This document shows positions 4,353-61,213 of a stretch of DNA of 64,000 nucleotides, piece by piece. The stretch covers positions 2,243 through 66,242 of the forward strand of contig CAZKKX010000001.1 in assembly GCA_964553505.1 (NCBI GenBank). Reading direction: 5' to 3'. The stretch comes from an uncultured Eubacteriales bacterium. GTDB taxonomy: Bacteria; Bacillota; Clostridia; Peptostreptococcales; JAAYPU01. Within the stretch, counting starts at the first letter, position 1. Each line of letters begins with the position of its first letter. The notes beneath the pieces are model-generated. The model ran no database searches, was not told the DNA's origin, and saw only the letters and a list, made by a program, of their open reading frames with translations. A program made the position numbers and the translations under genes.

Positions 4353-4625
4353 GCCATCCCTCAATATTTTTCTAATTTTGTCTAATTTGGTTTTATTATA
4401 TAATATAACATTCAGGATATCAAATAACTTTTCATTATATTATTTCATCCAATAATTAATCCTGCATGCGGTAAGACTTTTTTCTCAACCGCATATTCAT
4501 ATATTCTAAGAACTAATATTAGGAACAATTTGACAAATAATTTCATTTTTTACTACTCTTTCTGGCATAAATAGTATATAATTTTAAAATAATCATGATA
4601 TATAAAAAAGCAGGGGGTAATTTAA

Positions 4626-31715: not shown

Positions 31716-32195
31716 TTACTTATGATAGGGTTCATTTTTTATAATTTTAAAGCTCCGATAAATTTGTTCCATTAAAATAATTCTCATAAGCTGGTGTGGA
31801 AAAGTCATCTGAGAAAAAGAAAGAATAAAATCTGATCTTTTTAGAATTTCTTCTGATAATCCCAAAGACCCGCCTATAATGAAAGCAATATTGCTTTTAC
31901 CTTGTATACCTAAAACCTCTAACTTTTTGGCCAATTTTTCTGAAGAAAGCTGTTTCCCCGTGATTTCCAAAGCAATAACATACATATCTTCTTTTATGCA
32001 TTTCAAAAGATTTTTCCCTTCTGCCTTTTTGACCATATCCTTTTCTGCTTCTGATAGATTTTCCGGTGCTTTTTCTTCTTTTACCTCATAAATTGACAGA
32101 TTGCAGTAATTATTTAACCTATTAATATATTCTTTAACACCATTCGACAAAAAACCCTTTTTTAATTTTCCAACACAATAAATAGATATATGCAT
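31716..32195 (-). CDS. rlmH: 23S rRNA (pseudouridine1915-N3)-methyltransferase RlmH
   Basis: SPOUT-family sequence with IAFIIGGSLGLS and TFPHQLMRIILMEQIYR motifs. 159 aa from ATG 32195. Confidence 0.92.
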   Translation of the reverse strand: MHISIYCVGKLKKGFLSNGVKEYINRLNNYCNLSIYEVKEEKAPENLSEAEKDMVKKAEGKNLLKCIKEDMYVIALEITGKQLSSEKLAKKLEVLGIQGKSNIAFIIGGSLGLSEEILKRSDFILSFSQMTFPHQLMRIILMEQIYRSFKIIKNEPYHK

Positions 32196-32286
32196 AATCT
32201 TTTCCTTCACTATTTTATCTTTTAAGTAACTGGCTATTATTAAAAAACTTAGCAGGAAAAAACCCTGCTAAGTTTTTGAACGCATA

Positions 32287-33486
32287 TTATATATCTATAG
32301 CCGCACTCAGTGTAATACTTACTTCTTGACTTCTTTTATCTCTTACGATCATTATATTTATAGTATCCCCGGGTCTGTATTGATATAGTTTACTGACTAA
32401 TTGAGACATATTTGTAATTTCTTTCCCATCTATACTGGTAATAATATCTCCTTCTTTAAGACCAGCTTTTGCAGCAGCGGAATCTGTGAATATTTGATAG
32501 ATATATACACCTTCCTCTACTCCGAGATCTACATCGAAGGTTTGCAGATATTGTTCAACATCAACACCTCTTATACCAATAACTGCTTTGCTAAATTCCC
32601 CTTTTTCTTTAAATTCATTGACAATCGGCTGAGCTATATTAATTGGAATTGCAAAGCCTAATCCTTCTCCGGACTGTATTTTAGCAGTATTGATTCCTAT
32701 TACCTGCCCCTTTTGATTTAATAATGGGCCCCCACTATTTCCCGGGTTAATGGATGCATCTGTCTGAATAAGTCCCTCAATGGATTCATAATTACTAATG
32801 GGTATGGTCCTATTTAATCCGCTTATGATTCCGGCTGTTACTGTCCTTTCAAACTGGAATCCTAACGGGTTGCCAATGGCAACAGCATATTGACCAACTT
32901 TGAGGTTATCAGAATCAGCAAGTTCTGCTGAATTTAGATTTTGTGCATCAATTTTAATTATTGCAAGATCAATGACAGAATCATTCCAGAGGAGTTCTCC
33001 CGCAAGCTCTCGACCGTCATGAAGAAGTACTGTAATATCAGTCATATCTCCATTATTTACAACATGCGAGTTCGTTAAAATATAGCCATTTTTGTCAACA
33101 ATAACACCTGTTCCGACTCCTTCGCCTCTTCTTTTCCCAAAAAAATCAGAATATACAATCTCTGTGGATATTCCAACAACTGAAGGCATAACTTTTTCTG
33201 CAACTGCTGCAGCTGCGTCTAATGGAACATTGTTTGTCTGTATAAGTATATTATTTGGAGTCTGCTCCTCTATATCCTCTACTTCTAAAAGAGGCAGAAC
33301 AAAATACGATAGCGCTCCGCCAATCAAACCAAAAACCAGCGATAAGATGATAAGCGTAACTATAGAAATACTTCTATTATTCTTTCTTTTACTGTTTTCC
33401 ATGATCATTTTATCATAGTTATTAACTTTGTCTTCGTTAAGAAGATGCTTTATTGCATCTTGATCGTTATTATCAAAATGATCCAT
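32287..33486 (-). CDS. HtrA/DegP-family serine protease with N-terminal TM anchor and C-terminal PDZ domain
   Basis: Catalytic motifs TNSHVV, D(L)AIIKI and GNSGGPL. The PDZ region contains LKEGDIITSIDGKEI. The start overlaps the walJ stop. Confidence 0.9.
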   Translation of the reverse strand: MDHFDNNDQDAIKHLLNEDKVNNYDKMIMENSKRKNNRSISIVTLIILSLVFGLIGGALSYFVLPLLEVEDIEEQTPNNILIQTNNVPLDAAAAVAEKVMPSVVGISTEIVYSDFFGKRRGEGVGTGVIVDKNGYILTNSHVVNNGDMTDITVLLHDGRELAGELLWNDSVIDLAIIKIDAQNLNSAELADSDNLKVGQYAVAIGNPLGFQFERTVTAGIISGLNRTIPISNYESIEGLIQTDASINPGNSGGPLLNQKGQVIGINTAKIQSGEGLGFAIPINIAQPIVNEFKEKGEFSKAVIGIRGVDVEQYLQTFDVDLGVEEGVYIYQIFTDSAAAKAGLKEGDIITSIDGKEITNMSQLVSKLYQYRPGDTINIMIVRDKRSQEVSITLSAAIDI

Positions 33487-34306
33487 AGTAACACCTCTCT
33501 TTTTTTGTTATGCTGTAAACCTTACTAATCTGCTCCCGAAGAGCCGTATGTAAAAGTACGTCTTTTCCAATATAAAAACGCTCTTCTTCAAGAATGTTTT
33601 TTATTGTCTGGTACGCCATTTCCGGAAAATTATTTTCACGACTCAAATGGGCAAGCAGTATTTGTCTTTCTTTATTATCTTTTTTTAATAAATTGATAAT
33701 CGTTTTTCCTGCATCTATATTTGATAAATGCCCTTTACTGCTTAAGATACGCTGCTTAAGATACCAAGGGTACCGACCCATCTTAAGCATTTCGATATCA
33801 TGATTAGCTTCTAATACTAGAAAATCAGCATTTGATATTTCACTAAATACACCTGTTGTCATCTTTCCAATGTCTGTAGCAATACTGACTTGACGGTCAT
33901 CCTTATAAAAGGAAAACCCTACCGGATCTGCCGCATCGTGAGGAATAGTATAAGTTTTTATAATAAAATCATTTAGCTCAAAGTATTCTCCTGTAGTAAA
34001 AACTTTTCTATTATGTTTTTCAATTCGACCAATTCCCCCTTTCATCATCTCCCATGTTTTAGCATTTGCATAAATAGGAATATCATTCTTTCGGGAGATG
34101 ATTCCTGCACCCTTCACATGGTCAATGTGCTCATGTGTAATTAATAGCGCTGTTATTTCCCGGGCATCCACTCCAATATTGGCAAGCCCTTGCATAATTC
34201 TTTTTCCGGAAATACCGGCATCTAAAAGTATTTTTGTTTCGTTGGACGCAAGATAATAGCAGTTCCCACTGCTTCCGCTTGCAATTGAACAAAATAGTAA
34301 ATCCAT
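33473..34306 (-). CDS. walJ: MBL-fold metallo-hydrolase WalJ/YycJ-like
   Basis: HxHxDH motif (ITHEHIDHVKG). Position between yycI and htrA, as in the Bacillus wal operon. Start at ATG 34306 behind GGAGGA. Confidence 0.8.
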   Translation of the reverse strand: MDLLFCSIASGSSGNCYYLASNETKILLDAGISGKRIMQGLANIGVDAREITALLITHEHIDHVKGAGIISRKNDIPIYANAKTWEMMKGGIGRIEKHNRKVFTTGEYFELNDFIIKTYTIPHDAADPVGFSFYKDDRQVSIATDIGKMTTGVFSEISNADFLVLEANHDIEMLKMGRYPWYLKQRILSSKGHLSNIDAGKTIINLLKKDNKERQILLAHLSRENNFPEMAYQTIKNILEEERFYIGKDVLLHTALREQISKVYSITKKERCYYGSF

Positions 34307-34441
34307 GCTGTCCTCCATTTTCCAAAGCCTATTATATTATAAAAACAAATTTAAAACAATTGTGTGATTTATTACAAAACAATAAAAATGCACTATCTCA
34401 ATGCATTTTTATCAGCAAACATTTAATATTCAAAACAATCA

Positions 34442-35182
34442 TTAATCTTCATATGCATTAATGTATTTTTTTTCGTCATTATTATAAGTTATTTTCCAAG
34501 CAGGAAGAGCTGTATCTAAAGTTGTGTTCTCCATATTGAACATCGAATTATCCTCTAACCAGTATACTAAGTCGATACCTGTGATAACCGTTTCTTCATT
34601 CAGATTTTCTTTCTTTATGGCAAACTTCATTAATGCTGTTGTAGCAGGAATAGTTTTCTTTTTGTTTTCTCCGGGTTTTATTGGATAATACCACTCCCGT
34701 TCAAAATTTACGATTTTGCCATTATTTATTAAAATGCTCATATAGCATTCTTCTAATAAAATATCTTTATAATAATTTTTATAAACAATTGAGTATCCGT
34801 CTACTTCCTTCTTTATGCTATCCAAATGAACATTATTATTCATCAAATTGTTTCGATCTAAAAATTTTTTAGTTAATTTAACCGCTTCATCCTCCGACAG
34901 ATTTCTATTTAGCTTGAACTCTTTTTCATTCATTGCTTTATCTATATTTTCAATCGAATAATCAAAGTATTCCACCTCAAGTACAGGCATTTTTTTCAAA
35001 TTTTGAGGAATCTTTGTATAAACATATATGTTCCTCTTATTAAGAAAATTTATGGTTTCCTCTATCACTTCTGAATGAACTTCTTGGTTACCTCTTTTTT
35101 CTATAATTACAAAAAAAGCAAGTGTTATGTTAGTCAAAATAAGAGCCGCTATTAAAATAGTCTTTGCTTTCGTCCAGTCCAT
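34442..35182 (-). CDS. yycI: YycI-like two-component regulatory protein
   Basis: N-terminus MDWTKAKTILIAALILTNITLAFF matches the recalled conserved YycI start (MDW-x-K-x-K...). Single TM plus an extracytoplasmic domain, 246 aa. Synteny supports the call. Confidence 0.7.
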   Translation of the reverse strand: MDWTKAKTILIAALILTNITLAFFVIIEKRGNQEVHSEVIEETINFLNKRNIYVYTKIPQNLKKMPVLEVEYFDYSIENIDKAMNEKEFKLNRNLSEDEAVKLTKKFLDRNNLMNNNVHLDSIKKEVDGYSIVYKNYYKDILLEECYMSILINNGKIVNFEREWYYPIKPGENKKKTIPATTALMKFAIKKENLNEETVITGIDLVYWLEDNSMFNMENTTLDTALPAWKITYNNDEKKYINAYED

Positions 35183-35192
35183 AGGTCATCTC

Positions 35193-36686
35193 CTATCTTA
35201 ATGCTTTCCAGTCTATCGGATTTCCTGATCGTGCATCAAAGAAAAATTCATATTTATCTGTAGTAAAAATCCATACGGGAATCAACTGTATCTCTTCTTC
35301 GTAATGCCTTCTTTCATAAGATAAATACCCAACATCAACCCTATATATAAGCCCGACAACTTCATTAAATATTTCTAATTTTGATTTTTCTCCAAAGTCA
35401 TAACCTTCTTTTATATAGGCTTCTTTTATATATTCATAACTATTGTTTAATATGTTGACCGTAGACATGACGTTACTCTCATAGTCCTGATTACTGTTGG
35501 TCATAAACTGAAGAGTATCTTTCTGATCTAAAAGATATCTTTTATAATAAGTTATCTGATTACCTATTACTTCTACTTCCAATGCGCTGTTATTCCCTTG
35601 ATAAGAAACCGGATATCCATTTATGCGGTATTGAAAAATAAATCTATACCCTGTTTTATTATTCTTTTCAACAACAATGGAATCCTTTAAGTATGGATAA
35701 ATATTTGTACCGTTTAATGTTTTCCAATTACCATGATTTTTTATAAACTCTATCGCACTGGAGAGAGACTTTAAATAATCATTTGAGCTGTTATTCATAT
35801 CATTTATTTCTTGCTTGTATTCTAAAAACCCTCTGCTGTCTACAATAAACATTTTTTGCCCATATCCATACATATAAATAACCGTACCGTTTGTTTCAAC
35901 TATTTTCCTGACAAAATCAAAACTCTCACCGAAAAAAGTTTCTGCTATGGCATTTATTTTACCTGTTTCATAATAATGAATTTCCTGTTCTCCCGATATC
36001 TCTTGAACGCTATTTTTTAAAGAATGAGGCATTAGGTTATTGTTCTCAACACCAAAAAAAGTATTAATAGGATTATATATATCATAAACATTTCGTTTCT
36101 CTATTGTAGAAATTGGCTCTAAAACATCCTTATATTCCTTTTCACATATAATTTGATAATATTTTTTATTTTTATCATCATATATAAAAAAGCTTTCAGG
36201 ACTTACTTCAGAATATGCAGCAGAAGAAAAAATCTCAATGATTTCATTTGTCTGATTTTTATTGGCATTAATTATTTCTGCCATAGCATTGTACGGTATA
36301 TTAGAACCAAAATCAAATTTTACTGATTCATAGTTAAGGACTTCATTCCATTGGGACGGAAGTATTTCTTCAACGTAAATCTCTTGTTGTGATGCCTCAC
36401 GATATGCCGATATAAAATTTTGCCATACACTGTTAAAACCGGTATATAATACTGTATACTTGCCTCCTCCAAAATTAATACGAATTCGGAATGGTTCTAA
36501 AAAATCAGCAGTTGTATTAACGACTGCTTCTTCATTTTTTTCTTCAATATTCACAGCATTTAAAGAAAAATTATCTTTCTTGAACATGCTGTCTTCCCAT
36601 ATAAAATATAATAGTAGTATCGTGATACAAAACAATACTACTATTGATAAAGTTTTCATTTTCTCTTTTTCGGAAAATATCTTCAT
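35193..36686 (-). CDS. yycH: YycH-like two-component regulatory protein
   Basis: 497 aa with an N-terminal TM anchor (LSIVVLFCITILLLYFIW) and a large extracytoplasmic part. It lies immediately upstream of yycI-walJ-htrA. The call rests on architecture and synteny. Confidence 0.6.
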   Translation of the reverse strand: MKIFSEKEKMKTLSIVVLFCITILLLYFIWEDSMFKKDNFSLNAVNIEEKNEEAVVNTTADFLEPFRIRINFGGGKYTVLYTGFNSVWQNFISAYREASQQEIYVEEILPSQWNEVLNYESVKFDFGSNIPYNAMAEIINANKNQTNEIIEIFSSAAYSEVSPESFFIYDDKNKKYYQIICEKEYKDVLEPISTIEKRNVYDIYNPINTFFGVENNNLMPHSLKNSVQEISGEQEIHYYETGKINAIAETFFGESFDFVRKIVETNGTVIYMYGYGQKMFIVDSRGFLEYKQEINDMNNSSNDYLKSLSSAIEFIKNHGNWKTLNGTNIYPYLKDSIVVEKNNKTGYRFIFQYRINGYPVSYQGNNSALEVEVIGNQITYYKRYLLDQKDTLQFMTNSNQDYESNVMSTVNILNNSYEYIKEAYIKEGYDFGEKSKLEIFNEVVGLIYRVDVGYLSYERRHYEEEIQLIPVWIFTTDKYEFFFDARSGNPIDWKALR

Positions 36687-36697
36687 GTTTTTCGCCC

Positions 36698-37285
36698 CTA
36701 ATTTCCAAATATGCTTTTAATCAGACTCTCGAGGGCTTGAATCCCGTTATTTTTTTGATTATTAAATATTTCTGACTTCGGTCTGTCCTCAGGCCTTTCG
36801 CTTTTATCTTTTATTTCAAATTTTTTTAAAATAGTATAATTGGCAGAATTACTACTGTTTCCGGTCTCTTCAATTAAGATCTGATATTTACCAGGAATCA
36901 GTTTTTCCAATTGAAGCGTATAAAAACTAAATTCACCGGTTGTATTTACTTCCACCGGTCCGTATAGAATAACGTTATCAGATAATTCTTTTTCTTCTGT
37001 GCTTTCTGAGACAGTTATTGCCCCAGAAGAAAGCACAGTATGTATTTCTATATGATTTGTATCAACAATAGCATTGTCCGCATATAAAGTAAACCTAAAA
37101 GATTTTTCATTCTGGACCTTAACAGATATCAACAATATATCTGAATAAATAACATTTTCAGTCGGGCTGATTACTTCCAGTACATCAATTTTTTGGGTTT
37201 TTAAAGTATCATTTGCAAATCCAACAAGGGTTGTTGAAGCAATCATTACAACAATTATTAATATATATGTAATAGACCTTCTCAT
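36698..37285 (-). CDS. Secreted or anchored 195-aa hypothetical protein, first gene of the yycH operon
   Basis: Signal/anchor MRRSITYILIIVVMIASTTLVGFA and a beta-rich body. 11-nt gap to yycH. Confidence 0.5.
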   Translation of the reverse strand: MRRSITYILIIVVMIASTTLVGFANDTLKTQKIDVLEVISPTENVIYSDILLISVKVQNEKSFRFTLYADNAIVDTNHIEIHTVLSSGAITVSESTEEKELSDNVILYGPVEVNTTGEFSFYTLQLEKLIPGKYQILIEETGNSSNSANYTILKKFEIKDKSERPEDRPKSEIFNNQKNNGIQALESLIKSIFGN

Positions 37286-37487
37286 AATCTTTTCCTCCTA
37301 TCCCAGGCAGCTTAATTGAATTATATATAAGTTATATTACAAACTAATTACAGACGTTTTAAAATATATTTACATTAACAGGATATTTTTTAATATCATT
37401 TCTTATATAATACAGTAACACTTTTCTCTTATATTCATAATATATAATAAACTGTAAAAGTATACTATGCAAAATGGAGGGAAAGTT

Positions 37488-37697
37488 ATGAGTACTGAAA
37501 AACAAGGACTTCTTGGCGGATTAGGCGGTGACGATACATCATTACTATTTTTTTTCTTGTTGCTTGTTGTTCTTTTCTGTAACGTTGATTTTTTCGACAA
37601 AATCGGTGGAATTGGCAATGCAATAGGAGATGGCGACACAAGTTTGTTGTTCTTCTTCTTATTATTGGTCGTTCTTTTCTGCAATTGCGGCTTTTAA
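37488..37697 (+). CDS. 69-aa mini-protein with two identical 17-aa hydrophobic repeats (DTSLLFFFLLLVVLFCN)
   Basis: ATG 37488 lies 6 nt after GGAGGG. Repeats at 37533-37583 and 37635-37685 encode identical peptides, although 12 of 17 codons differ and every difference is synonymous. Confidence 0.7.
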   Translation: MSTEKQGLLGGLGGDDTSLLFFFLLLVVLFCNVDFFDKIGGIGNAIGDGDTSLLFFFLLLVVLFCNCGF

Positions 37698-38446: not shown

Positions 38447-39544
38447 TTAATTTATAAAATTTTCATCTTTTAATATTTCTATTTTATTATTGCTTCCTAT
38501 AACAACTCTTCCATTTGATAGCAACCCTGCCCAAACAATATCTTTTGTCAATTTTGTCTCTTCAATGGAAGAATTCTTAACAAAATACAGGGATCTGTCG
38601 CCATATAAAATTGTTTTACTTTTACTGGACTCTATTCCTTTAATGCTTCCGGTAACTGATTCTGACAATATGATTTCATTATCTTTTCCCAACAGGATAA
38701 TATTTGTCTTGCCTATTTCTGAAGAACATATAACGAGACCTTTCTTAAAAAAACTGTATTCTGCCCTATCAGCTACTATCCGTTTTTCCCATACGGTTTC
38801 CTTCTTTTTATTCATCTTTATAATTCTTTTATCGCCAACACATATTAATTCACCATTTTCAACAAGAAATACTGCTGGAAAAATTTCATTTTCAAAAATT
38901 TTCCCACTTTCAACTTGACCGTGAATATCTGCAAATAATATATTAGATTTGATGCCTTTTTCATATGTAATTATTGATATTGCAACCGTATTTTCCAATG
39001 AATCTATTGAATAATCAACTATGCTGCCATCTTTAATTCCTTTTATGCTTCCTGTTTCCATGCCATTTTCATCAAAAAAAATCAAATTTTCTGTTCCATC
39101 TTTTTCTCTGACATGAAAACCTATATACCCCCCTCTACTATCTTGCTTAATACTTAGAATCTCTTGAGGAAAATATATTTCATTACAAATATCACCAGAC
39201 AATTCAGCAATATAGGTTTTTTGTTTTTTTATATCTGTTACAAAAATCATATTTCCCACTTTATTAAGCATTGTTTCTGAAAAATCTCCAGAAAAAGTAT
39301 GGCGGTTAGTCTCATTTTCCATATGAATCGTCAATTCATTATTTTCTAAAATAATAATATTGTTATTAATTAATGTATGTTTATAATCTGTTTTCTTCGT
39401 ATTTATCGTCTTTTGAACTTCATAAGAATTTCCTTTGGAAAAATCTAAAACATAAAAGATTAATGTGCCTATTAATATAATAAATACGAAAAAAGATAAA
39501 AAAAATCTTTTTTTTGCTTTTTTCTTTCTCCTCTTCATGCCCAA
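38447..39544 (-). CDS. Membrane-anchored beta-repeat protein (recalled as DUF5711-like), function unknown
   Basis: Basic N-terminus plus a TM helix (FFLSFFVFIILIGTLIFYVL), followed by about 320 aa of repetitive beta-strand-like sequence. 14-nt gap after the PP2C gene. Confidence 0.5.
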   Translation of the reverse strand: MGMKRRKKKAKKRFFLSFFVFIILIGTLIFYVLDFSKGNSYEVQKTINTKKTDYKHTLINNNIIILENNELTIHMENETNRHTFSGDFSETMLNKVGNMIFVTDIKKQKTYIAELSGDICNEIYFPQEILSIKQDSRGGYIGFHVREKDGTENLIFFDENGMETGSIKGIKDGSIVDYSIDSLENTVAISIITYEKGIKSNILFADIHGQVESGKIFENEIFPAVFLVENGELICVGDKRIIKMNKKKETVWEKRIVADRAEYSFFKKGLVICSSEIGKTNIILLGKDNEIILSESVTGSIKGIESSKSKTILYGDRSLYFVKNSSIEETKLTKDIVWAGLLSNGRVVIGSNNKIEILKDENFIN

Positions 39545-39558
39545 TCCGACCCTTTTCC

Positions 39559-40677
39559 TTATATTATTTCAACCAAAACCATGGCAATATCATCTTTTAT
39601 ATGTCCCGATGTAAAATCTTTAATTTCTCTAAATATATTCGAAATAATATCTTCCCCAGATAGATGATTTTTAGTTTTTAATAATTTGTAAATTCGTTCA
39701 AACCCGAAGAATTGTGTTTTTTCATTATGTGCTTCAATAATACCATCGGTATAAAAAAATACTTTATCTCCTTTTTCTAATTTTACAGTAATGCTTTTAT
39801 GTTTAAAGTTTTCAATAATCGAACAAATAGGAAATCCATTTATATCTATTTCCTCAAGATTACCGTTATTTCGCATAATTACCGGGTAGCAATTGTGTCC
39901 GGCATTCACAAATGTTATTTCACGTGTCTTTTTATTATAAACACCGTATAGAACAGTAAAATATGTTTCGGTGTCAATTTTTAACTCCTTATAATTTCTA
40001 ACCAGATCATCGATGGTTTCTTCTACTTTTATTTTATTACTCTTTTTATTTCTCATTACTTGCCTTAAAAACATTGTAAACATCGAAGCACTGACACCAT
40101 GTCCGGATACATCTGCAATATAAATACCAATATGATCCTCGTCGATTTCAATAATATCGAATATATCGCCGCCTAAAAATTCACTCGGTTCATATTTTGC
40201 CGATACTTTCATACATCCACCGTATAATGCATTCTCGGGAATTATTTTGTTTTGCAATTGTTTTGCAAAGTTTAAATCTGTTTTCATTTTTGAATATTGT
40301 TCATATATTTTTCCTTCCATTTCTTTCTGTTCTGTAATATCTCTGAAGACTTCAACAGAATACACCTGATTTGTTTTTTCATTAAGTACCGGTGAGCTAA
40401 CTACAGAATAAATACTTGGCCCCAGCTTCTCTTCTTTGCTATAAGATTTAAAGGATTCTAAGCTTTTTTTTGTTATACAATCCAAACATTTTTGAGTCTT
40501 GTTAATCGCTTCATAGCATTTTTTTCCTACTAAATCTCCGAATATTTCTCGCATAATTTTATTCATAAAAACAACGTTGCCATTTTTATCTATAACACGA
40601 ACCATATCCTGCATGTTTTCTAAAATATGTGTCATAAAATAACACGAACTGATTTCATCTTTTAATAATGGATCCAT
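39559..40677 (-). CDS. PAS-domain PP2C (SpoIIE/RsbU/RsbP-type) serine phosphatase
   Basis: N-terminal PAS (MVRVIDKNGNVVFMN...GKKCYEA) and a C-terminal PPM domain (GGDIFDII, IADVSGHGVSASM, FFYTDGIIEA, DDIAMVLV). Confidence 0.88.
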   Translation of the reverse strand: MDPLLKDEISSCYFMTHILENMQDMVRVIDKNGNVVFMNKIMREIFGDLVGKKCYEAINKTQKCLDCITKKSLESFKSYSKEEKLGPSIYSVVSSPVLNEKTNQVYSVEVFRDITEQKEMEGKIYEQYSKMKTDLNFAKQLQNKIIPENALYGGCMKVSAKYEPSEFLGGDIFDIIEIDEDHIGIYIADVSGHGVSASMFTMFLRQVMRNKKSNKIKVEETIDDLVRNYKELKIDTETYFTVLYGVYNKKTREITFVNAGHNCYPVIMRNNGNLEEIDINGFPICSIIENFKHKSITVKLEKGDKVFFYTDGIIEAHNEKTQFFGFERIYKLLKTKNHLSGEDIISNIFREIKDFTSGHIKDDIAMVLVEII

Positions 40678-40865: not shown

Positions 40866-41732
40866 TTATCCTTTTTCTTTTGATGTAATAATATCTATCA
40901 ATCTCTCCAGTTCTTCCATGCTATAATATTCTATCTCTATCTTCCCTTTTTTTCTTCCTTGAGTGATACTAATTTTTGTCCCCAAAATTCTTTGTAAGTC
41001 TTTTTCGATACCGGTTATTTCCGGATCTTGATTTTTGGGGTTTCCACTCTTCCTTTTATTCTTCTTTTTATTTTGAACAGCCGCTTCAATTTGTCTTACC
41101 GAAAAACCCTTTGCAATAATCTCTTTCGCTAAAGCGTTCTGTGCTTTCTTGTCTTCAATATTAATTAAAGCTCGTGCATGTCCGCTGGATATTTTATTGT
41201 CTAATATCATCTCTTGAATACTATCAGAAAGCTTAAGCAATCTTAATGCATTCGAGATGTAAGGCCGGCTTTTCCCCACATTATTGGACACATCTTCCTG
41301 TGTCATGCCATATGTTTGGATCATATATTCAAAAGCTTTAGCCTCTTCGATGGCATTTAAATCTTCTCTTTGTAAATTCTCTATTATAGATACCAACATA
41401 TGGTGCTTTCCGTCAATATCTTTAATGATGCAAGGAATCTCTTTGAGCTTTACTTTTCTGGCAGCACGCCATCTTCTTTCTCCTGCAATTATTTCATAAC
41501 CCGTATTCGTAGGTTTAACCAAAATAGGTTGAATAATACCGTGTTTTTTTATTGATTCAGATAATTCATCTATTTTTTCGGATTTAAAAATTTTCCTTGG
41601 TTGATTTTGATTAGGGTAGATTTTATTTATATCGATAAACATAATATCTTTATCACTGGTTTCATTGATTCTAATATCTGTAAATAATGCTTCAAGTCCT
41701 TTACCCAATGCTTTTCCTCTGTTTCCCGCCAT
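40866..41732 (-). CDS. parB: Chromosome partitioning protein ParB/Spo0J
   Basis: ParB N-terminal box (IQPILV...YEIIAGERRWRAA), an HTH and a C-terminal dimerisation region. Follows parA. Confidence 0.93.
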   Translation of the reverse strand: MAGNRGKALGKGLEALFTDIRINETSDKDIMFIDINKIYPNQNQPRKIFKSEKIDELSESIKKHGIIQPILVKPTNTGYEIIAGERRWRAARKVKLKEIPCIIKDIDGKHHMLVSIIENLQREDLNAIEEAKAFEYMIQTYGMTQEDVSNNVGKSRPYISNALRLLKLSDSIQEMILDNKISSGHARALINIEDKKAQNALAKEIIAKGFSVRQIEAAVQNKKKNKRKSGNPKNQDPEITGIEKDLQRILGTKISITQGRKKGKIEIEYYSMEELERLIDIITSKEKG

Positions 41733-49999: not shown

Positions 50000-51352
50000 A
50001 TGAACGATCAGATTAATTTAATATGGGACAAAGCTTTAAAAATCATTAAACCAGAAATCACAGAAATAAGTTTTAATACATGGATGATTCCCATTAAACC
50101 AATTTCTATAAATTCAGATAAAGAAAAAATAACCTTATCTATATATAGTGATTTTGCAAAAGGAATAATTGAAACTCGTTATATAAACCTTATCCAAAAT
50201 GCAATAAAACAAGTATCTGGTAAAGATTATAAAGTATTATGCTTATCATCCGAAGAAAATTTTTCTGATTCTTCTGATCAGGATACTTCTAATAATAATT
50301 ATAAAGAAAGTGTAACTGATGATCTTTATCTTAATCCAAAATATATTTTTGAAACTTTCGTAATCGGAAGTAGTAATAGATTTGCTCATGCAGCTTCTTT
50401 AGCAGTTGCAGAAACACCGGCAAAAGCATATAACCCTTTGTTTATATATGGTGGTGTTGGATTAGGTAAAACTCATCTTATGCATGCTATCGGTCATTAC
50501 ATAATTCAAAATAACCCTCGCGTTAAAGTACTGTATGTATCATCTGAAAAATTTACAAATGAATTAATAAATGCTATAAAAGATGATAAAAATCCTGAAT
50601 TTAGAAGTAAGTTTAGAAATATTGATGTTCTTCTTATAGACGATATACAATTTATTGCAGGAAAAGAAAGAACACAAGAAGAATTCTTTCATACATTCAA
50701 TACTTTATATGAAGCAAATAAACAAATTATTTTATCCAGTGATCGACCACCAAAAGAAATTCCTACTTTAGAAGAAAGATTAAGATCCAGATTTGAATGG
50801 GGGCTCATTGCAGATATTCAACCTCCTGATTACGAAACACGAGTAGCTATTTTAAGAAAAAAAGCAGAAATTGAAGGTATTAGGGTTACAGAAGAATTAA
50901 CAGAAGTAATGGAATTTATTGCAGAAAAAATACAATCAAATATTCGTGAACTCGAAGGCGCTCTTATAAGAATTGTTGCTTATGCTTCCTTAACAAATAA
51001 AGATATTAACAAAGCATTAGCAAAAGAAGCATTACAGGATATTTTTTCATCACAAAACCGAAAAATTACACCTAAGATTATTAAAGATTGTGTTTCTAAA
51101 TATTTTAATCTTAAAGTAGTAGATTTAGAATCAAAAAAAAGATCACAGAATATTGCATTTCCAAGACATATTTCAATGTTTCTTTGCAGAGAAATGACAG
51201 ATTTATCTCTTACGAAGATTGGAGAAACATTTGGTGGAAGAGATCATACAACTGTTCTTCATGCCTGTGAAAAAATATCAAAAGAGAAAAAATTTAATAA
51301 TAGTTTAAATGAAATAATAAAAAGCATAATAGAAGAAATAAAATCAAATTGA
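50000..51352 (+). CDS. dnaA: Chromosomal replication initiator protein DnaA
   Basis: AAA+ Walker [11 protein letters not shown], box VII and the C-terminal DNA-binding domain ([11 protein letters not shown]). Confidence 0.98.
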
Positions 51353-51446
51353 TTTTTATTTTTCAACAGGTCTGTTTATTAATTTTCTATATTATAAACA
51401 ATTATTTTTTTATAAATTAATATTGATTTTACATCTTAAAATATTG

Positions 51447-51505
51447 TTATCAACAAATTAACAGGACTTATTACTATTACTACTTAAAAACAATATAAAA
51501 AATAA
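51447..51505 (+). promoter_or_regulatory. oriC unwinding module: DnaA box, GC step, DnaA-trios, AT-rich DUE
   Basis: TTATCAACA (51447-51455), then CAGGAC, then CTTATTACTATTACTACTT (51467-85; the bottom strand reads AAG TAG TAA TAG TAA TAA, i.e. repeated 5'-TA(G/A)-3' trios), then AAAAACAATATAAAAAATAA. Confidence 0.65.
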
Positions 51506-51524
51506 CGTGAGTGAAGGTGATAAA

Positions 51525-52631
51525 ATGAAAATAACATGCCAACAACAAGATCTTTCAAAAGCTTTAAATACAGTTCAAAAAGCTGTTACAAACAGAACAA
51601 CAATACCAATATTAAAAGGTATTTATTTAAATGCTGATAATGATGGAATATTACAATTGGCAGCGTCTGATTTAGATCTAAATATAGAAAAAAAAATAAG
51701 TGTATCAGTAAATGCTCCCGGTTCAATAGTTGCTTCTGCAAAATTATTCACGGAAATTATAAGAAAATTACCAGAAGGAGTAATAACAATAGAGGTAATT
51801 GATAAAAACATTTTAATAAAAAGTTATAATTCCGAATTTACAATTATAGGGCAATCTCCTGATGATTTTCCTGAAATAAATAAAACACAAACCCATGAAA
51901 ATATCGTAATAGATAAAGAAATATTTAAAAATATGATAAAGCAGACATCCTTTTCTGCAAGTATTGATGAATCAAGAGGAATTATAACCGGTGTTTTAAT
52001 TGAATTTAGCAAAGATTCCATAAATATGGTAGCTTTAGATGGTTTTAGAATGGCAATAAGAACAGAAAAAATAAATAATGACATTGATAAAAAAATTATA
52101 ATACCTTCCAGAATTTTAAATGAAATATATAAAATAATTATAGATCAGGAAGAAAAAAACATTAATATTTTACTAAATGAAAAAAATATTATTATAGAAA
52201 TAGAGAATACTGTTATTACATCAAGACTAATGGAAGGAGATTTTATAAATTATAAAGAAATAATACCTAAAAATTATACATGTAAAATAAAATTAAATAA
52301 GAACGATTTATATAATAGTATTGAAAGAGCTTCATTACTTGCAAGAGAAGGAAAGAATAATTTAATAAAGATAAAAATAGAAGATAAAAAAATGATTATT
52401 ACATCTCGTTCAGAAGAAGGAGCTGTACATGAAGAAGTTTACATTGAGAAAGAAGGAGATGAATTAGAGATAGGATTTAATTCAAAATATATTTTAGATA
52501 TATTAAGAAATATTGAAGATGAAGAAATATACTTTGAATTTATATCAAACATTAGTCCTTGTTTAGTTAGACCATTGGATGGGTTTAAATATGAATATCT
52601 GTTATTACCTGTAAGAATCTCTGTAAATTAA
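51525..52631 (+). CDS. dnaN: DNA polymerase III beta sliding clamp
   Basis: MKITCQQQDLSKALNTVQKAV... has typical DnaN length and sequence. ATG 51525 lies behind GAAGGTGA. Confidence 0.96.
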   Translation: MKITCQQQDLSKALNTVQKAVTNRTTIPILKGIYLNADNDGILQLAASDLDLNIEKKISVSVNAPGSIVASAKLFTEIIRKLPEGVITIEVIDKNILIKSYNSEFTIIGQSPDDFPEINKTQTHENIVIDKEIFKNMIKQTSFSASIDESRGIITGVLIEFSKDSINMVALDGFRMAIRTEKINNDIDKKIIIPSRILNEIYKIIIDQEEKNINILLNEKNIIIEIENTVITSRLMEGDFINYKEIIPKNYTCKIKLNKNDLYNSIERASLLAREGKNNLIKIKIEDKKMIITSRSEEGAVHEEVYIEKEGDELEIGFNSKYILDILRNIEDEEIYFEFISNISPCLVRPLDGFKYEYLLLPVRISVN

Positions 52632-52650
52632 AAACGATGGGAGTGAATTG

Positions 52651-53904
52651 ATGAATATTATAAAAAGAGATATTTCGGAAAAAAGGGCGGAACAGCTCAA
52701 AGGACGAATAAAAAATTATCTTTTTATTAAAGAAAAAATAGATAAGGGATTAGAAAGAAAAAAAGAAATAGAAGAAAGAAAAAAAACAATACTTAAAGTA
52801 TTAAATGGAACAGAAGATGATTGGAATGACTACAAATGGCAATTAAAAAATAAAATTAGTACAGTTGAGGTTTTAGATAAAATAGTAAAATTATCAGAAG
52901 AAGAAAAAGAAACATTATTAAAAATAAGCAAAAAATATCGATGGGGAATATCACCTTATTATTTAAGTTTAGTAAATTTTTCAAAAAAATATGGTCCTAT
53001 TAGATTAATGTCCATACCATTATATAATGAAATAGAAGATAATTTTGGTATGTTGGATCCAATGAGTGAAGAATATACAAATCCGGCAGGATGTATTACC
53101 AGAAGATATCCGGATCGCCTTATAATAAATGTTACAAATGAATGTGCAATGTATTGCAGATTCTGTCAAAGAAGAAGAAATATAGGACAAAAAGACAAAG
53201 CTAAAAGTAAAGAGATTATTAATGAGTCTATAAATTATATTAGCGAAAATAAAGAAATAAGAGATGTCCTTATTACAGGTGGAGACGCATTGACGCTCAA
53301 TGACGAATATATAGAATATATAGTAAGCAAAGTAAGAGAAATAAAACATGTTGAAATTATACGAATAGGAACCAGAACACCCGTCACAATGCCTCAGAGA
53401 ATAACACAAGAATTATGCGATATGTTAAAAAAATACCATCCAATCTATATAAACACGCATTTTAACCATCCAATGGAAGTAACAGAAGAAGCAAAAAATG
53501 CTTGTGAAAGATTAGCTGATGCCGGAATACCTCTTGGAAACCAAGCAGTCCTTTTAAATGGGGTAAACAATAATCCGGATGTCATGAAATGTTTAAATCA
53601 AGAACTTTTGAAATGCCGGGTAAAGCCTTATTATATTTTTCATGCTAAAAATATTAAAGGAACAACACATTTTTGTACTTCAATTGAAGATGGGCTGAGA
53701 ATTATGGATAACTTAAGAGGTTTTACTTCAGGAATGGCAATACCGACTTATATAATAAATGCACCCAAAGGAAAAGGAAAAGTTCCATTAAGCAGTAATA
53801 ACATAGTTGAAAAAGGAAAAGGATATATAATTATAAAAACCTGGGAAGGTGAACATATTAAAATCAAAAACTATGATACAATCAATATTAAACAAATAAA
53901 ATAA
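52651..53904 (+). CDS. KamA-family radical-SAM aminomutase with glutamate-2,3-aminomutase-type substrate residues
   Basis: CAMYCRFCQRRR (CxxxCxxC) cluster motif and a PLP-region KamA fold. Lys (53647-53649) and Asn (53758-53760) occupy the positions of the two lysine-binding Asp residues of lysine 2,3-aminomutase. Confidence 0.8.
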   Translation: MNIIKRDISEKRAEQLKGRIKNYLFIKEKIDKGLERKKEIEERKKTILKVLNGTEDDWNDYKWQLKNKISTVEVLDKIVKLSEEEKETLLKISKKYRWGISPYYLSLVNFSKKYGPIRLMSIPLYNEIEDNFGMLDPMSEEYTNPAGCITRRYPDRLIINVTNECAMYCRFCQRRRNIGQKDKAKSKEIINESINYISENKEIRDVLITGGDALTLNDEYIEYIVSKVREIKHVEIIRIGTRTPVTMPQRITQELCDMLKKYHPIYINTHFNHPMEVTEEAKNACERLADAGIPLGNQAVLLNGVNNNPDVMKCLNQELLKCRVKPYYIFHAKNIKGTTHFCTSIEDGLRIMDNLRGFTSGMAIPTYIINAPKGKGKVPLSSNNIVEKGKGYIIIKTWEGEHIKIKNYDTINIKQIK

Positions 53905-55327: not shown

Positions 55328-55395
55328 ATATAAATAATTAAGTCTTATTCCAAATAACTGCTTTTCACCATACTATAATATAAGAGGTGATAATA

Positions 55396-56079
55396 ATGGC
55401 GGTTATTTTAGTATATAATAATGATACAAATGAAATTGAGAGATATCAAAGAAACGAAAATGAAATCATGCCTTATGTATATAATAACAGTCTTTCTGTA
55501 AATGAATTCAGAGGCTCATCAAATTCAGAAACATTATGGACAGATAAAAGAACAATGGAAACATGGAGTAGATTCAGAGATTATTATGGTTCTCCAATTT
55601 TTGTTGGGTTTGCTTTTAAAAGAATATGGGAAGGAGGACATAGTCCACAATCTCAGCATTATGCAGGAACAGCTTTTGATGTAGCACAAAATTTGACTAC
55701 TGCTCAAAGAAATCGACTTAGACAAAGCGCTATTAATTTTGGACAGTGGAGTTATGTGGAACCTGCTTATCTGACGCCTACATGGGTACACATGGATAAA
55801 AGAAATTTAAATCAAGCCTGCGCCAGCGGCGGATATCCTCTATTGAGAAGAGGGAACAGAAGCAATTATGTATTGATAATGCAAGATGCTTTAAATGCAC
55901 TTGGATTTACAGGATCAGGATTAGATGGGATATTTGGAGGCAATACCGAAGCTGCTGTAAGGAATTTTCAGCAAGCTTATGGAATCCCCTCGGATGGTAT
56001 AGTAGGTTGTGTTACTTGGACTATATTATCTCAATCAGCAAGAGGAATTGGATTAACACCTACTATCATAAGTCCATAA
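55396..56079 (+). CDS. Peptidase M15 (zinc D-Ala-D-Ala carboxypeptidase/endolysin-like) fused to a PG_binding_1 domain, no signal peptide
   Basis: Zinc ligand pattern SQHYAGTAFD...WVHMD. C-terminal LQDALNALGF...DGIFGGNTEAAVRNFQ...DGIVG repeat typical of the peptidoglycan-binding domain. ATG 55396 lies behind AGAGGTGA. Confidence 0.7.
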   Translation: MAVILVYNNDTNEIERYQRNENEIMPYVYNNSLSVNEFRGSSNSETLWTDKRTMETWSRFRDYYGSPIFVGFAFKRIWEGGHSPQSQHYAGTAFDVAQNLTTAQRNRLRQSAINFGQWSYVEPAYLTPTWVHMDKRNLNQACASGGYPLLRRGNRSNYVLIMQDALNALGFTGSGLDGIFGGNTEAAVRNFQQAYGIPSDGIVGCVTWTILSQSARGIGLTPTIISP

Positions 56080-60785: not shown

Positions 60786-60892
60786 ATACGAAAAGTTATG
60801 GTCCATAAAAAGCAAAAAACATTTTAAAAATAATTAAATATTTTACAATAAAAAGGGTATATATGAATTGTTACATTAAAGGAGGTTTCAAT

Positions 60893-61213
60893 ATGACTCT
60901 GGAAATGAAAAGTTTTTTTAATAGCGAAATGAATCAATGGAAGCTGGAAGTTAAAGGTGAAATTGATGTTTTTACTGCAAAAAACCTCAGGGAAAAAATC
61001 AAAGATATCTATAATAAAAAACAAAAAGACATTATTTTAGACTTTAAGCAACTTAACTATATTGACAGTACGGGGCTGGGTGTTATTATAGGCGCCTATG
61101 GAAGAATGAAAGAAAAAAATAATAATTTGATTATTATAAATGCAAAACAGAATGTTTTAAAGCTTTTAACCATAACCGGCCTGGATAAGATACTTATTAA
61201 GACAAATTTTTAG
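60893..61213 (+). CDS. Anti-sigma-factor antagonist (STAS; RsbV/SpoIIAA-type)
   Basis: 106 aa. Phosphorylatable serine context YIDSTGLGVI. ATG 60893 lies behind AAAGGAGG. Confidence 0.9.
   Translation: MTLEMKSFFNSEMNQWKLEVKGEIDVFTAKNLREKIKDIYNKKQKDIILDFKQLNYIDSTGLGVIIGAYGRMKEKNNNLIIINAKQNVLKLLTITGLDKILIKTNF

What the first reader, a model, noticed from the sequence alone, without database searches (positions are those of the whole stretch)
32287..37285. yycH-yycI-walJ-htrA module with no walR/walK upstream
The Bacillus-type order walH(yycH)-walI(yycI)-walJ-htrC-...-rlmH is preserved near the origin. However, the two genes that YycH and YycI are known to regulate, the WalK kinase and the WalR regulator, are missing from the head of the operon. 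A 195-aa signal-peptide protein (36698-37285) takes their place, and upstream there is only a divergent promoter region. YycH and YycI act through transmembrane contact with WalK. An orphan pair therefore implies a relocated kinase partner, a different kinase target, or a WalK-independent role coupled to the secreted protein and HtrA.
Basis: partly seen in the sequence, partly recalled or inferred. Interest (0 to 1): 0.55.

Follow-up and report, generated by a model that had tools for sequence, protein, structure and literature searches.

The report
Split wal locus keeping WalR control
This is the accessory half (YycH, YycI, WalJ, HtrA and a previously undescribed small secreted protein) of the cell-wall-sensing WalRK system; in this bacterial family the kinase and regulator genes lie elsewhere near the replication origin, and a conserved WalR binding site in front of the module indicates that the two halves are still linked.

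Summary
On the minus strand, 13 kb from dnaA, lie a 195-aa secreted protein, a YycH-fold protein, YycI, an MBL-fold WalJ, HtrA and RlmH. There is no walR or walK anywhere in the 64 kb.

This arrangement is the norm for the family. In 65 of 80 related species loci (Anaerovoracaceae) the order is the same and walRK is absent. Ten outgroup loci (Geosporobacter, Marinisporobacter and others) have walR-walK-small-yycH-yycI-murA-walJ-htrA-rlmH. The 195-aa protein is therefore an ancestral operon member, not a replacement.

In four Anaerovoracaceae genomes, WalRK orthologues sit after a LysM/G5/M23 peptidase gene. In two of them this is 45 kb from yycH on the same contig, in divergent orientation.

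The only exact WalR consensus (TGTWAH-N5-TGTWAH) in the window lies about 50 nt upstream of the 195-aa gene. It belongs to four half-sites spaced 11 bp apart, ending 10 nt before a TATAAT. The same box occurs in 76 of 77 related loci, against a background of about 1.7%.

Best reading: this is a WalR-controlled accessory operon acting in trans on a WalK encoded elsewhere, probably forming a feedback loop. WalR binding, the direction of regulation and the location of walRK in this genome are all inferred. It is a new variant of a known system, of moderate interest.

The parts
37336..37374 (-). Four phased WalR-type half-sites: TGTAAA (37374-37369), TTTAAA (37363-37358), TGTAAT (37352-37347), TGTAAT (37341-37336). 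The promoter-proximal pair is an exact TGTWAH-N5-TGTWAH.
   Evidence: This is the only exact match in the window. The flanking 1-mismatch matches lie in 11-bp register. The architecture is conserved in 76 of 77 related loci, and the information profile shows only these hexamers and the -10 as conserved columns. Phylogenetic footprint.
37320..37325 (-). TATAAT -10 hexamer, 10 nt downstream of the last half-site. At 17-nt spacing the -35 position reads ATTAGT, which is 2 of 6 matches.
   Evidence: Read from the sequence. The hexamer is invariant in the closest relatives. TATA(A/C)T at a fixed distance is conserved across 75 loci. Promoter function and the transcription start (about 37313) are inferred.
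36698..37285 (-). 195-aa secreted protein. Signal peptide with an A-x-A-type cleavage site near residue 24, an Ig-like beta-sandwich (about residues 36-159), and a conserved C-terminal amphipathic helix (residues 180-193). No Pfam family. It is the conserved first gene of the accessory operon.
   Evidence: Homologous to the ORF between walK and yycH in Geosporobacter (tblastn E 2.9e-12). Present upstream of yycH in 77 of 80 loci (76 of them were aligned). 328 database relatives, all named 'hypothetical' where named at all. AF2 model pLDDT 71.7. Foldseek gives only generic Ig-like matches.
35193..36686 (-). YycH (WalH)-like protein, 497 aa, with an N-terminal membrane anchor and a three-domain extracytoplasmic part.
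   Evidence: AF2 pLDDT 82.8 with helix 2-35. Foldseek: 9a5d_B E 1.4e-18, 2fgt E 2e-14. 13 of 22 relatives hit PF07435. The protein itself has no Pfam hit.
34442..35182 (-). YycI (WalI) homologue, 246 aa, with an N-terminal membrane anchor.
   Evidence: PF09648 at 52.6 bits against a cut-off of 29.7. 32% identical to Geosporobacter YycI.
33473..34318 (-). WalJ-type MBL-fold hydrolase, 281 aa. Its stop overlaps the htrA start by 14 nt.
   Evidence: Lactamase_B and Lactamase_B_2. 45-58% identical (one partial match at 40%) to the MBL gene in the same position in loci beyond the window's own sub-lineage, and 51-53% in the intact operons. No WalR box of its own is conserved upstream.
32287..33486 (-). 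Membrane-anchored HtrA serine protease (trypsin-like domain plus PDZ), 399 aa.
   Evidence: NF047968 at 485.6 bits against a cut-off of 470; Trypsin_2 and PDZ_2.
31716..32210 (-). RlmH, the last conserved gene of the syntenic block. It may or may not be co-transcribed.
   Evidence: NF000985 at 227.9 bits. It follows the module in most loci of both types where the downstream sequence is present.

Best explanation
The region is the accessory half of a wal (WalRK) locus that was split once, at the base of the Anaerovoracaceae lineage, exactly between walK and the next gene.

The part that remained beside parB/oriC is an operon encoding:
- a small secreted Ig-like protein;
- the membrane-anchored WalK modulators YycH and YycI;
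- WalJ;
- HtrA.

The operon has its own promoter, in which four WalR half-sites at 11-bp spacing take the place of the -35 element. WalR~P, made by a WalRK pair encoded elsewhere, would therefore control transcription of the module. In relatives that pair lies about 45 kb away in divergent orientation; here it would fall about 17 kb beyond the right end of the window. YycH and YycI would then act in trans on WalK in the membrane.

If the box activates transcription, as the pho-box-like geometry suggests, and if YycH/YycI inhibit WalK as in B. subtilis, the result is a negative feedback loop on WalK activity.

Shown:
- the identities of the proteins;
- absence of walRK from the window;
- family-wide conservation of the split;
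- WalRK orthologues elsewhere in relatives;
- conservation of the box and its geometry.

Inferred:
- WalR binding;
- the direction of regulation;
- the YycH/YycI-WalK contact;
- the location of walRK in this particular genome;
- any role for the small protein.
For: Protein identities.

No walRK and no remnants in the window.

Synteny survey of 80 species loci:
- 65 loci read parB..PAS-PP2C-RNaseH(-)-small-yycH-yycI-walJ-(htrA)-rlmH;
- 10 loci read walR-walK-small-yycH-yycI-murA-walJ-htrA-rlmH;
- 1 locus is different and 4 are truncated.
Closer relatives of the window (82% down to 37% YycH identity) all lack walRK upstream. In a YycH tree the two arrangements fall on the two sides of a single split.

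The TCS in the intact operons is WalRK. WalR scores 351.5 against the YycF equivalog cut-off of 340, and WalK's best hit is HK_WalK over its full length.

Anaerovoracaceae have orthologues. WalR scores 329-333 bits on the YycF model, against 251-255 for the next family. WalK scores 543-549 bits on HK_WalK and is 52% identical over its full length, including both transmembrane helices. They lie in the context DnaD-like-LysM/G5/M23-(S8)-walR-walK-(yabPQ)-divIC-rnmV-ksgA. This shares the left flank of the intact operons.

Same-contig distances between yycH and walK are 44.8 kb and 44.9 kb, in divergent orientation.

WalR box:
- a single exact match in the window, directly upstream of the first gene;
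- matches at one mismatch or fewer, on the coding strand, in 76 of 77 loci (31 exact), against 1.7% of random 220-nt windows;
- only 16 exact matches in the other 1.26 Mb of the loci, at least 9 of them upstream of the LysM/G5/M23 gene in outgroup loci; an exact match in that position also occurs in L090, an Anaerovoracaceae contig outside that count;
- only the four hexamers and the -10 are conserved columns.

The consensus used is the published B. subtilis one (PMC9210968). YycH and YycI are WalK inhibitors that form a membrane complex with it in B. subtilis (PMC7299342). A WalR-activated WalK inhibitor that forms a negative feedback loop has a precedent in S. aureus SpdC (PMC5854430).
Against: - walRK was not found for this genome or its genus. 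The window ends at 64 kb, and the closest relative's contig probably ends before the expected position.
- One exact box in 64 kb is what chance gives (expected 0.83). The argument rests entirely on positional conservation among related sequences.
- No binding or expression data exist.
- Another OmpR-family regulator could recognise the same repeat.
- A box overlapping the -35 region could repress rather than activate.
- The 497-aa protein fails the Pfam YycH model itself, and a family profile does not find 2fgt by sequence.
- In S. aureus, WalH and WalI are not clear inhibitors of WalK (PMC5854430), so the Bacillus role may not transfer.
- The generic promoter scan gave no more hits than shuffled sequence.
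Confidence: 0.7

Rival explanations
1. The wiring is the same but the sign is opposite. WalR~P binds the four half-sites that overlap the -35 region and represses the accessory operon. High WalK activity would then lower its own inhibitors, giving positive feedback or a switch.
For: The box covers roughly -61 to -23 relative to the inferred start. From my own knowledge of B. subtilis work (Bisicchia et al. 2007), WalR-repressed genes have sites overlapping the promoter, whereas sites of activated genes lie upstream of -35.
Against: There is no recognisable -35 (ATTAGT). The fixed 10-nt gap to the -10 is conserved in 75 loci. This geometry matches activator-dependent pho-box promoters of the same regulator family (own knowledge). 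A repressor site would not need such fixed phasing with the -10.
Confidence: 0.2
2. YycH and YycI have been re-targeted. They work with a different kinase, or with the small protein and HtrA in a WalK-independent envelope function.
For: There is no adjacent kinase. One related locus, L083, has a non-orthologous two-component system upstream. [quoted passage not shown]
Against: WalK orthologues with conserved transmembrane helices persist in the family. The module keeps a WalR-type box that is already present inside the intact operon of outgroups. YycH and YycI show the same level of divergence in both arrangements.
Confidence: 0.08
3. The conserved direct repeats are the site of another OmpR/PhoB-family regulator, or a promoter element unrelated to WalR. 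The match to the WalR consensus is coincidental.
For: The repeat is AT-rich and the genome is 32% GC. One exact match per window is expected by chance. WalR recognition in this family has never been tested.
Against: In outgroups the same motif sits immediately after the walK stop codon and upstream of the neighbouring LysM/G5/M23 peptidase gene, a typical WalR-regulon class. The family's WalR scores 329-333 bits on the YycF equivalog model. Exact matches elsewhere in 1.26 Mb of loci are very rare.
Confidence: 0.1
4. This particular organism has lost walRK altogether, and the module is a decaying remnant.
For: walRK was not observed for this genome or genus.
Against: All five ORFs are intact, with close or overlapping spacing. 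The box is exact. YycH is conserved at 82%, 66% and 55% in the nearest relatives with the same order. WalRK is considered essential and universal in Firmicutes (PMC9210968).
Confidence: 0.03

Closest known systems
Bacillus subtilis walR-walK-walH(yycH)-walI(yycI)-walJ-htrC locus
   Same: YycH-fold and YycI-family membrane-anchored proteins are followed by an MBL-fold WalJ, an HtrA-type protease and, further on, rlmH, on the origin-proximal left arm. WalH and WalI inhibit WalK and form a membrane complex with it (PMC7299342).
   Different: Here walRK is not contiguous. An extra small secreted Ig-like gene heads the accessory unit. The unit also has its own WalR-box promoter, whereas the Bacillus operon is reported not to be autoregulated (PMC7299342; PMC9210968).
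Intact wal operons of other Peptostreptococcales-type Clostridia (Geosporobacter, Marinisporobacter, Anaerophilus, Anaerosolibacter, Clostridiaceae bacterium 35-E11)
   Same: The same small gene, yycH, yycI, walJ, htrA and rlmH in the same order. The same four-half-site box and -10 lie in front of the small gene.
   Different: In those genomes walR-walK lie immediately upstream, with the box starting at the walK stop codon, and murA is inserted between yycI and walJ. In the window lineage a PAS-PP2C gene, DUF5711 and a divergent RNase H gene lie upstream instead.
Clostridioides difficile walA-walR-walK-truA2 operon
   Same: It is another member of the same broad order in which the wal locus departs from the Bacillus layout and sits away from yycJ/htrA-type genes (PMC9210968).
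   Different: C. difficile has a lipoprotein, WalA, and the paper lists no walH or walI in the operon. Its WalK lacks the cytoplasmic PAS domain. The Anaerovoracaceae WalK keeps HAMP and PAS, and the YycH/YycI pair is retained.
Staphylococcus aureus SpdC-WalKR feedback loop
   Same: A membrane protein whose gene is activated by WalR and which in turn inhibits WalK, giving negative feedback (PMC5854430). This is the circuit logic proposed here.
   Different: SpdC is an Abi-domain polytopic protein unrelated to YycH/YycI. Here the loop would run through the canonical accessory proteins, and it is only inferred from a conserved site.
PhoB/PhoP-type 'pho box' promoters
   Same: Direct repeats with 11-bp periodicity end about 10 bp upstream of the -10 and replace the -35 element. 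They are bound by an OmpR-family regulator acting as activator (own knowledge). The geometry here is read.
   Different: The half-site sequence is the WalR one (TGTWAH), not a pho box. Function has not been tested.

Membership tests
YycH / WalH (PF07435; structure 2FGT) | Match to the family HMM above threshold | tested here: not met
   The window protein has no Pfam or NCBIfam hit. 13 of 22 aligned relatives match PF07435, best E 1e-15. A family profile does not find 2fgt by sequence.
YycH / WalH (PF07435; structure 2FGT) | Three-domain YycH fold behind a single N-terminal transmembrane helix | tested here: met
   AF2 pLDDT 82.8, pTM 0.79, helix 2-35. Foldseek top hits are 9a5d_B (WalK-YycH) at E 1.4e-18 and 2fgt at E 2e-14, both with probability 1.00.
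YycH / WalH (PF07435; structure 2FGT) | Encoded next to yycI and downstream of walK | tested here: inconclusive
   It is next to yycI (10-nt gap). It is not downstream of walK in this window, but orthologues in outgroups are, with the small gene in between.
YycH / WalH (PF07435; structure 2FGT) | Binds and modulates WalK | not testable with these tools
   Needs two-hybrid, co-purification or genetics. Co-folding was not available.
YycI / WalI (PF09648) | Match to the family HMM above the gathering score, with an N-terminal membrane anchor | tested here: met
   PF09648 at 52.6 bits against 29.7, covering residues 37-244. A hydrophobic N-terminal stretch, roughly residues 9-27, is read. The fold itself was not predicted.
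WalJ / YycJ (MBL-fold hydrolase of wal loci) | Metallo-beta-lactamase fold with the HxHxDH motif, encoded after yycI | tested here: met
   Lactamase_B at E 4.7e-19. The motif HEHIDH is present in the translation. The position is conserved and the protein is 51-53% identical to the gene in intact operons. No dedicated HMM or solved relative was found.
HtrA serine protease | Equivalog HMM above cut-off; trypsin-like domain plus PDZ | tested here: met
   NF047968 at 485.6 bits against 470; PF13365 and PF13180.
Bacillus-type contiguous wal operon (walR-walK-walH-walI-walJ) | walR and walK directly upstream of walH in one locus | tested here: not met
   There is no WalR or WalK similarity in the 64 kb. 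RNase H, DUF5711 and PAS-PP2C genes lie upstream.
WalR regulon member | TGTWAH-N5-TGTWAH direct repeat in the promoter region | tested here: met
   Exact match at 37336-37352. A second, 1-mismatch repeat lies in register. Conserved in 76 of 77 loci.
WalR regulon member | WalR~P binding and WalR-dependent transcription | not testable with these tools
   Needs EMSA, footprinting, ChIP or reporter assays.
WalRK two-component system present in the family (partner in trans) | Orthologues of WalR and WalK encoded elsewhere in genomes with the split module | tested here: met
   Shown for four Anaerovoracaceae assemblies (L089-L092). Not shown for the window's own genome or genus.

The most novel reading that the evidence does not exclude
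In a whole order of anaerobic Firmicutes, the WalK modulators YycH and YycI are made from a dedicated WalR-dependent promoter, together with a third, so far unrecognised extracytoplasmic partner: the Ig-like secreted protein with a conserved C-terminal helix. The set point of the essential WalRK cell-wall homeostat would then be adjusted by transcriptional feedback on its own inhibitors, a design reported to be absent from Bacillus. That autonomy would be what allowed the locus to be split in Anaerovoracaceae without loss of function.
Probability: 0.45. Interest if true: 0.55.

Novelty: new variant of a known kind. Interest (0 to 1): 0.42.

Why it matters
WalRK is the essential cell-wall homeostasis system of Firmicutes and an antibiotic target. 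How its set point is adjusted, and what the YycH/YycI ectodomains do, are open questions.

This locus and its relatives offer three things:
- a natural experiment in which the accessory genes are physically uncoupled from the kinase but apparently still under WalR control;
- a conserved internal WalR-type promoter, which predicts feedback on inhibitor levels, something the Bacillus model explicitly lacks;
- a new conserved candidate component of the complex.

All of this is inferred from sequence, in poorly studied anaerobes. For now the value lies in clear, testable predictions rather than in a demonstrated mechanism.

Tried and rejected
- **YycH by sequence models.** Pfam and NCBIfam on the 497-aa protein gave no hit. 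A family profile against PDB sequences did not find YycH. Fold comparison settled the question instead.
- **Remnants of walR/walK.** tblastn of the window found none. This rejects in-place decay.
- **Generic promoter and terminator scan.** 40 promoter-like sites against 34.6 expected. No intergenic terminator on the minus strand within the module. Uninformative.
- **WalR box upstream of walJ.** The 1-mismatch site at 34371-34387 is not conserved; the distribution in relatives equals background. Rejected.
- **WalR box upstream of walR.** None in relatives, so there is no sign that walRK itself is autoregulated.
- **Structure of the small protein from locus-derived homologues.** The fold search gave only generic Ig-like hits. 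The PDB profile search gave weak Ig/PKD/FnIII hits, E about 0.01. No specific family could be assigned.
- **PDB sequence searches for WalJ and YycI.** Nothing found.
- **Rfam and tRNA scans.** Nothing in or near the module.
- **Locating walRK in the window's own genus.** Not achieved.
- **Literature.** Searches for YycH/YycI in Clostridia, or for WalR control of walH/walI, found no description of this arrangement.

Full report
**What is in the window.** The window is the origin region of a genome with about 32% G+C. dnaA starts at 50000 and the GC skew changes sign there. The rnpA-side genes, gidAB, noc and parAB run leftwards on the minus strand. Continuing leftwards from parB (40866-41732), the genes are:
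- a PAS-PP2C (SpoIIE-type) phosphatase;
- a DUF5711 protein;
- a divergent RNase H gene;
- a 610-nt intergenic region;
- the five ORFs of the finding;
- rlmH.

The module genes are tightly packed. The gaps are 11 and 10 nt, then 123 nt before walJ. walJ and htrA overlap by 14 nt.

**Identities.**
- YycI passes its Pfam model (52.6 against 29.7 bits).
- HtrA passes the NCBIfam equivalog (485.6 against 470).
- RlmH is unambiguous.
- WalJ is an MBL-fold protein with the HEHIDH motif.

The 497-aa protein matches no Pfam or NCBIfam model. A search of the large protein collection gave 152 relatives, many of which carry PF07435 or are named YycH. When 22 of them were scanned, 13 hit PF07435. An AlphaFold model built on that alignment is confident (pLDDT 82.8, pTM 0.79). 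It has an N-terminal helix followed by mixed alpha/beta domains. Its best structural matches are the WalK-YycH integrative model 9a5d_B (E 1.4e-18) and the B. subtilis YycH crystal structure 2fgt (E 2e-14), with YycI further down the list. The protein is therefore a diverged YycH. The observation as written is confirmed.

**No kinase or regulator.** tblastn with WalR and WalK from an intact clostridial operon finds nothing significant in the 64 kb. There are no fragments in the 610-nt upstream region. None of the large ORFs is a histidine kinase or an OmpR-type regulator.

**The comparison that changes the picture.** The closest relative is a MAG labelled Anaerovorax odorimutans (82% YycH identity). 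It has the same gene order. So do relatives at 66, 55, 48 and 37% identity.

More distant relatives, Geosporobacter ferrireducens and Clostridiaceae bacterium 35-E11, have walR-walK-[163/172-aa ORF]-yycH-yycI-murA-walJ-htrA-yyzF-rlmH. The upstream pair there is genuine WalRK. WalR passes the YycF equivalog (351.5 against 340), and WalK's best match is HK_WalK over its full length.

The small ORF between walK and yycH is homologous to the window's 195-aa protein (tblastn E 2.9e-12). That protein is therefore an ancestral member of the operon, not something that replaced walRK.

**How common the split is.** A scan of one genome per species with the YycH alignment returned 80 loci. I classified them by tblastn with a panel of neighbouring proteins:
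- 65 loci have RNase H and/or the PAS-PP2C gene upstream and no walRK. These are Anaerovorax, Aminipila, Sinanaerobacter, Clostridium aminobutyricum and many MAGs labelled Anaerovoracaceae or Family XIII.
- 10 loci have the intact walRK-headed operon. These are Geosporobacter, Marinisporobacter, Anaerophilus, Anaerosolibacter, 35-E11 and others.
- 1 locus (L083) has an unrelated two-component system upstream.
- 4 loci are truncated.

In a neighbour-joining tree of YycH the two arrangements form the two sides of one split. The window's lineage branches deep on the split side. A single ancient rearrangement is the simplest account. The breakpoint lies exactly between walK and the small gene.

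**Where walRK went.** A profile of eight WalK sequences from intact operons retrieved full-length relatives (about 52% identity; HAMP, PAS, HisKA, HATPase). Looking these up gave the following:
- In Sinanaerobacter chloroacetimidivorans, walRK is on a different scaffold from yycH (against L025).
- On contig JANYJS010000082.1, yycH is at 28300-26873 (minus) and walK at 73133-74938 (plus).
- On an 87.9-kb ENA contig, walK is at 4596-6401 (minus) and yycH at 51325-52815 (plus).

In both same-contig cases the genes are about 45 kb apart and divergent. parB lies on the walK-ward side of yycH, so the origin should lie between them; the intervening sequence was not fetched.

In all four cases walRK follows a DnaD-like gene and a LysM/G5/M23 peptidase gene (in Sinanaerobacter further genes lie between the peptidase gene and walR), and is followed by (yabP-yabQ)-divIC-rnmV-ksgA; the rplI/helicase-purA genes further upstream were seen in the two loci with longer flanks. 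The left flank is shared with the intact operons.

The regulators score 329-333 bits on the YycF equivalog, just under the cut-off of 340, against 251-255 bits for the next family. The kinases score 543-549 bits on HK_WalK. WalK aligns end to end with the outgroup WalK, including both transmembrane helices.

By the same spacing, walRK in this genome would lie about 17 kb past the right end of the window. That is an inference: I could not retrieve walRK for this genus.

**The regulatory link.** Reading the intergenic region shows TGTAAT-TAGTT-TGTAAT at 37352-37336. This is an exact match to the published WalR consensus TGTWAH-N5-TGTWAH (PMC9210968). It is the only exact match in the window. On its own that is what chance predicts (0.83 expected).

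Allowing one mismatch reveals two further half-sites in 11-bp register, TGTAAA and TTTAAA. The last half-site ends 10 nt before a TATAAT (37325-37320). The -35 position reads ATTAGT.

The significance comes from comparison:
- An exact match lies just upstream of the small gene in most loci.
- A match with at most one mismatch, on the coding strand, within 220 nt of the start, is present in 76 of 77 loci (31 exact). For random 220-nt windows from the same loci the figure is 1.7%.
- Only 16 exact matches occur in the remaining 1.26 Mb of the loci. At least nine of them lie upstream of the LysM/G5/M23 peptidase gene next to walRK in outgroup loci, a typical WalR-regulon gene class. An exact match in that position also occurs in L090, an Anaerovoracaceae contig outside that count.
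- When 75 upstream regions are anchored on the box, the only information-rich columns are the four hexamers and TATA(A/C)T at a fixed distance. The alignment of the five closest sequences shows the same footprint.
- In the intact operons the array begins at the walK stop codon. The small-yycH-yycI unit therefore already had its own WalR-type promoter before the split.
- No such box is conserved upstream of walJ or of walR.

**Mechanism proposed.** The module is an operon whose promoter depends on, or at least responds to, WalR~P supplied in trans. Its products YycH and YycI join WalK in the membrane, as shown for B. subtilis, where both are inhibitors and all three proteins are needed for a stable complex (PMC7299342).

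The geometry is direct repeats replacing the -35 and ending 10 nt from the -10. This is the geometry of activator-dependent pho-box promoters in the same regulator family (my own knowledge). I therefore favour activation, and hence a negative feedback loop. The logic resembles the WalR-activated WalK inhibitor SpdC of S. aureus (PMC5854430). Repression is the main alternative.

This differs from the Bacillus model. There the operon is not autoregulated, and the levels of the WalK-WalH-WalI complex are thought not to be adjustable in this way (PMC7299342; PMC9210968). An autonomous, WalR-controlled promoter also explains why the locus could be cut between walK and the small gene without uncoupling the system.

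**The small protein.** It has a signal peptide with a nearly invariant alanine at the cleavage site. It carries conserved beta-strand motifs (LLISVK, LSFYTKQ, PGxY). On the split side of the family it also has a strongly conserved C-terminal LQNLLKSIFG helix.

The family has 328 database members. None has a Pfam domain, and all are named 'hypothetical' where named at all. The model (pLDDT 71.7) is an Ig-like beta-sandwich with a C-terminal amphipathic helix. Structural matches are generic: pilus chaperones, TapA, cohesin.

Its fixed position as first gene of the WalR-box unit makes it a candidate third extracytoplasmic partner of the WalK complex. Nothing tested here shows that.

**Comparison with known systems, and novelty.**
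- It works like the Bacillus wal accessory module. However, it is not a contiguous wal operon, so that defining feature is not met.
- It differs from C. difficile, which has walA-walR-walK-truA2, no walH or walI listed in the operon, and a WalK without a PAS domain (PMC9210968).
- Literature searches found no description of YycH/YycI in Clostridia, of a split wal locus, or of a WalR box in front of walH.

I rate it a new variant of a known kind. The protein families and the regulator are known. New are the family-wide split, the internal WalR-type promoter and the extra conserved gene.

**Limits.**
- Binding, the direction of regulation, the operon's extent, protein contacts and the presence of walRK in this very genome are all inferred.
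- The loci are related by descent, so conservation counts are not independent events. The argument rests on the contrast between the conserved hexamers and the otherwise unconserved flanks, at YycH identities of only about 30%.

Noticed in passing
window 37467-37697 (+): A 76-aa ORF with a strong ribosome-binding site, divergent from the module. It is very hydrophobic and built from an internal repeat (GGDDTSLLFFFLLLVVLFCN twice). It has no significant Pfam match. A similar small ORF is called at the same place in four relatives.
   Followed up: partly
window 39559-40677 (-), 60863-61213 (+), 61249-61650 (+), 61664-62440 (+): Parts of a partner-switching circuit lie on both sides of the origin. 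A PAS-PP2C (SpoIIE-type) phosphatase sits next to the module. A STAS anti-anti-sigma, an HATPase_c_2 anti-sigma kinase and a sigma-70-family factor sit after gyrA. The phosphatase gene is syntenic with the module in most split-type loci.
   Followed up: partly
window 52648-53904 (+) and 55387-56079 (+): The canonical dnaA-dnaN-recF-gyrB-gyrA cluster has two inserts. One is a radical-SAM protein with a lysine-2,3-aminomutase C-terminal domain, between dnaN and recF. The other is a PG_binding_1 plus weak M15-peptidase protein, between recF and gyrB.
   Followed up: partly
window 38447-39544 (-): A DUF5711 membrane-anchored protein lies between the phosphatase and RNase H genes. It is present only in the window's own sub-lineage (L007, L009-L012) and absent from other split-type loci.
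   Followed up: no
L013, L014, L021, L060, L069, L071, L072, L077, L079, L080, L085, L088 (related loci): HtrA is missing from the module in a subset of split-type species; walJ is followed directly by rlmH. The protease is therefore not an obligatory member.
   Followed up: no
L002 2661-2677, L004 2580-2596, L090 3978-4005 and others: Exact WalR-consensus boxes lie upstream of the LysM/G5/M23 peptidase gene next to walRK, in outgroups and in at least one Anaerovoracaceae contig. This is a likely WalR-regulon hydrolase.
   Followed up: partly
L083 4478-8997: One Anaerovoracaceae locus has a different two-component system (38% and 29% identity to WalR and WalK) upstream of small-yycH. The WalR-type box is still in front of the small gene.
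   Followed up: no
L055 (JADPRS010000003.1): A record titled 'Lutibacter sp. B2', a Bacteroidota genus, carries a clostridial intact wal operon. The record is probably mislabelled or contaminated.
   Followed up: no
L001 5379-5655: Two short ISL3-type transposase fragments lie between parB and the phosphatase gene in the closest relative. They are absent from the window.
   Followed up: no
window 34371-34387 (-): A one-mismatch WalR-like repeat lies in the 123-nt yycI-walJ gap. It is not conserved in relatives and is within chance expectation.
   Followed up: yes
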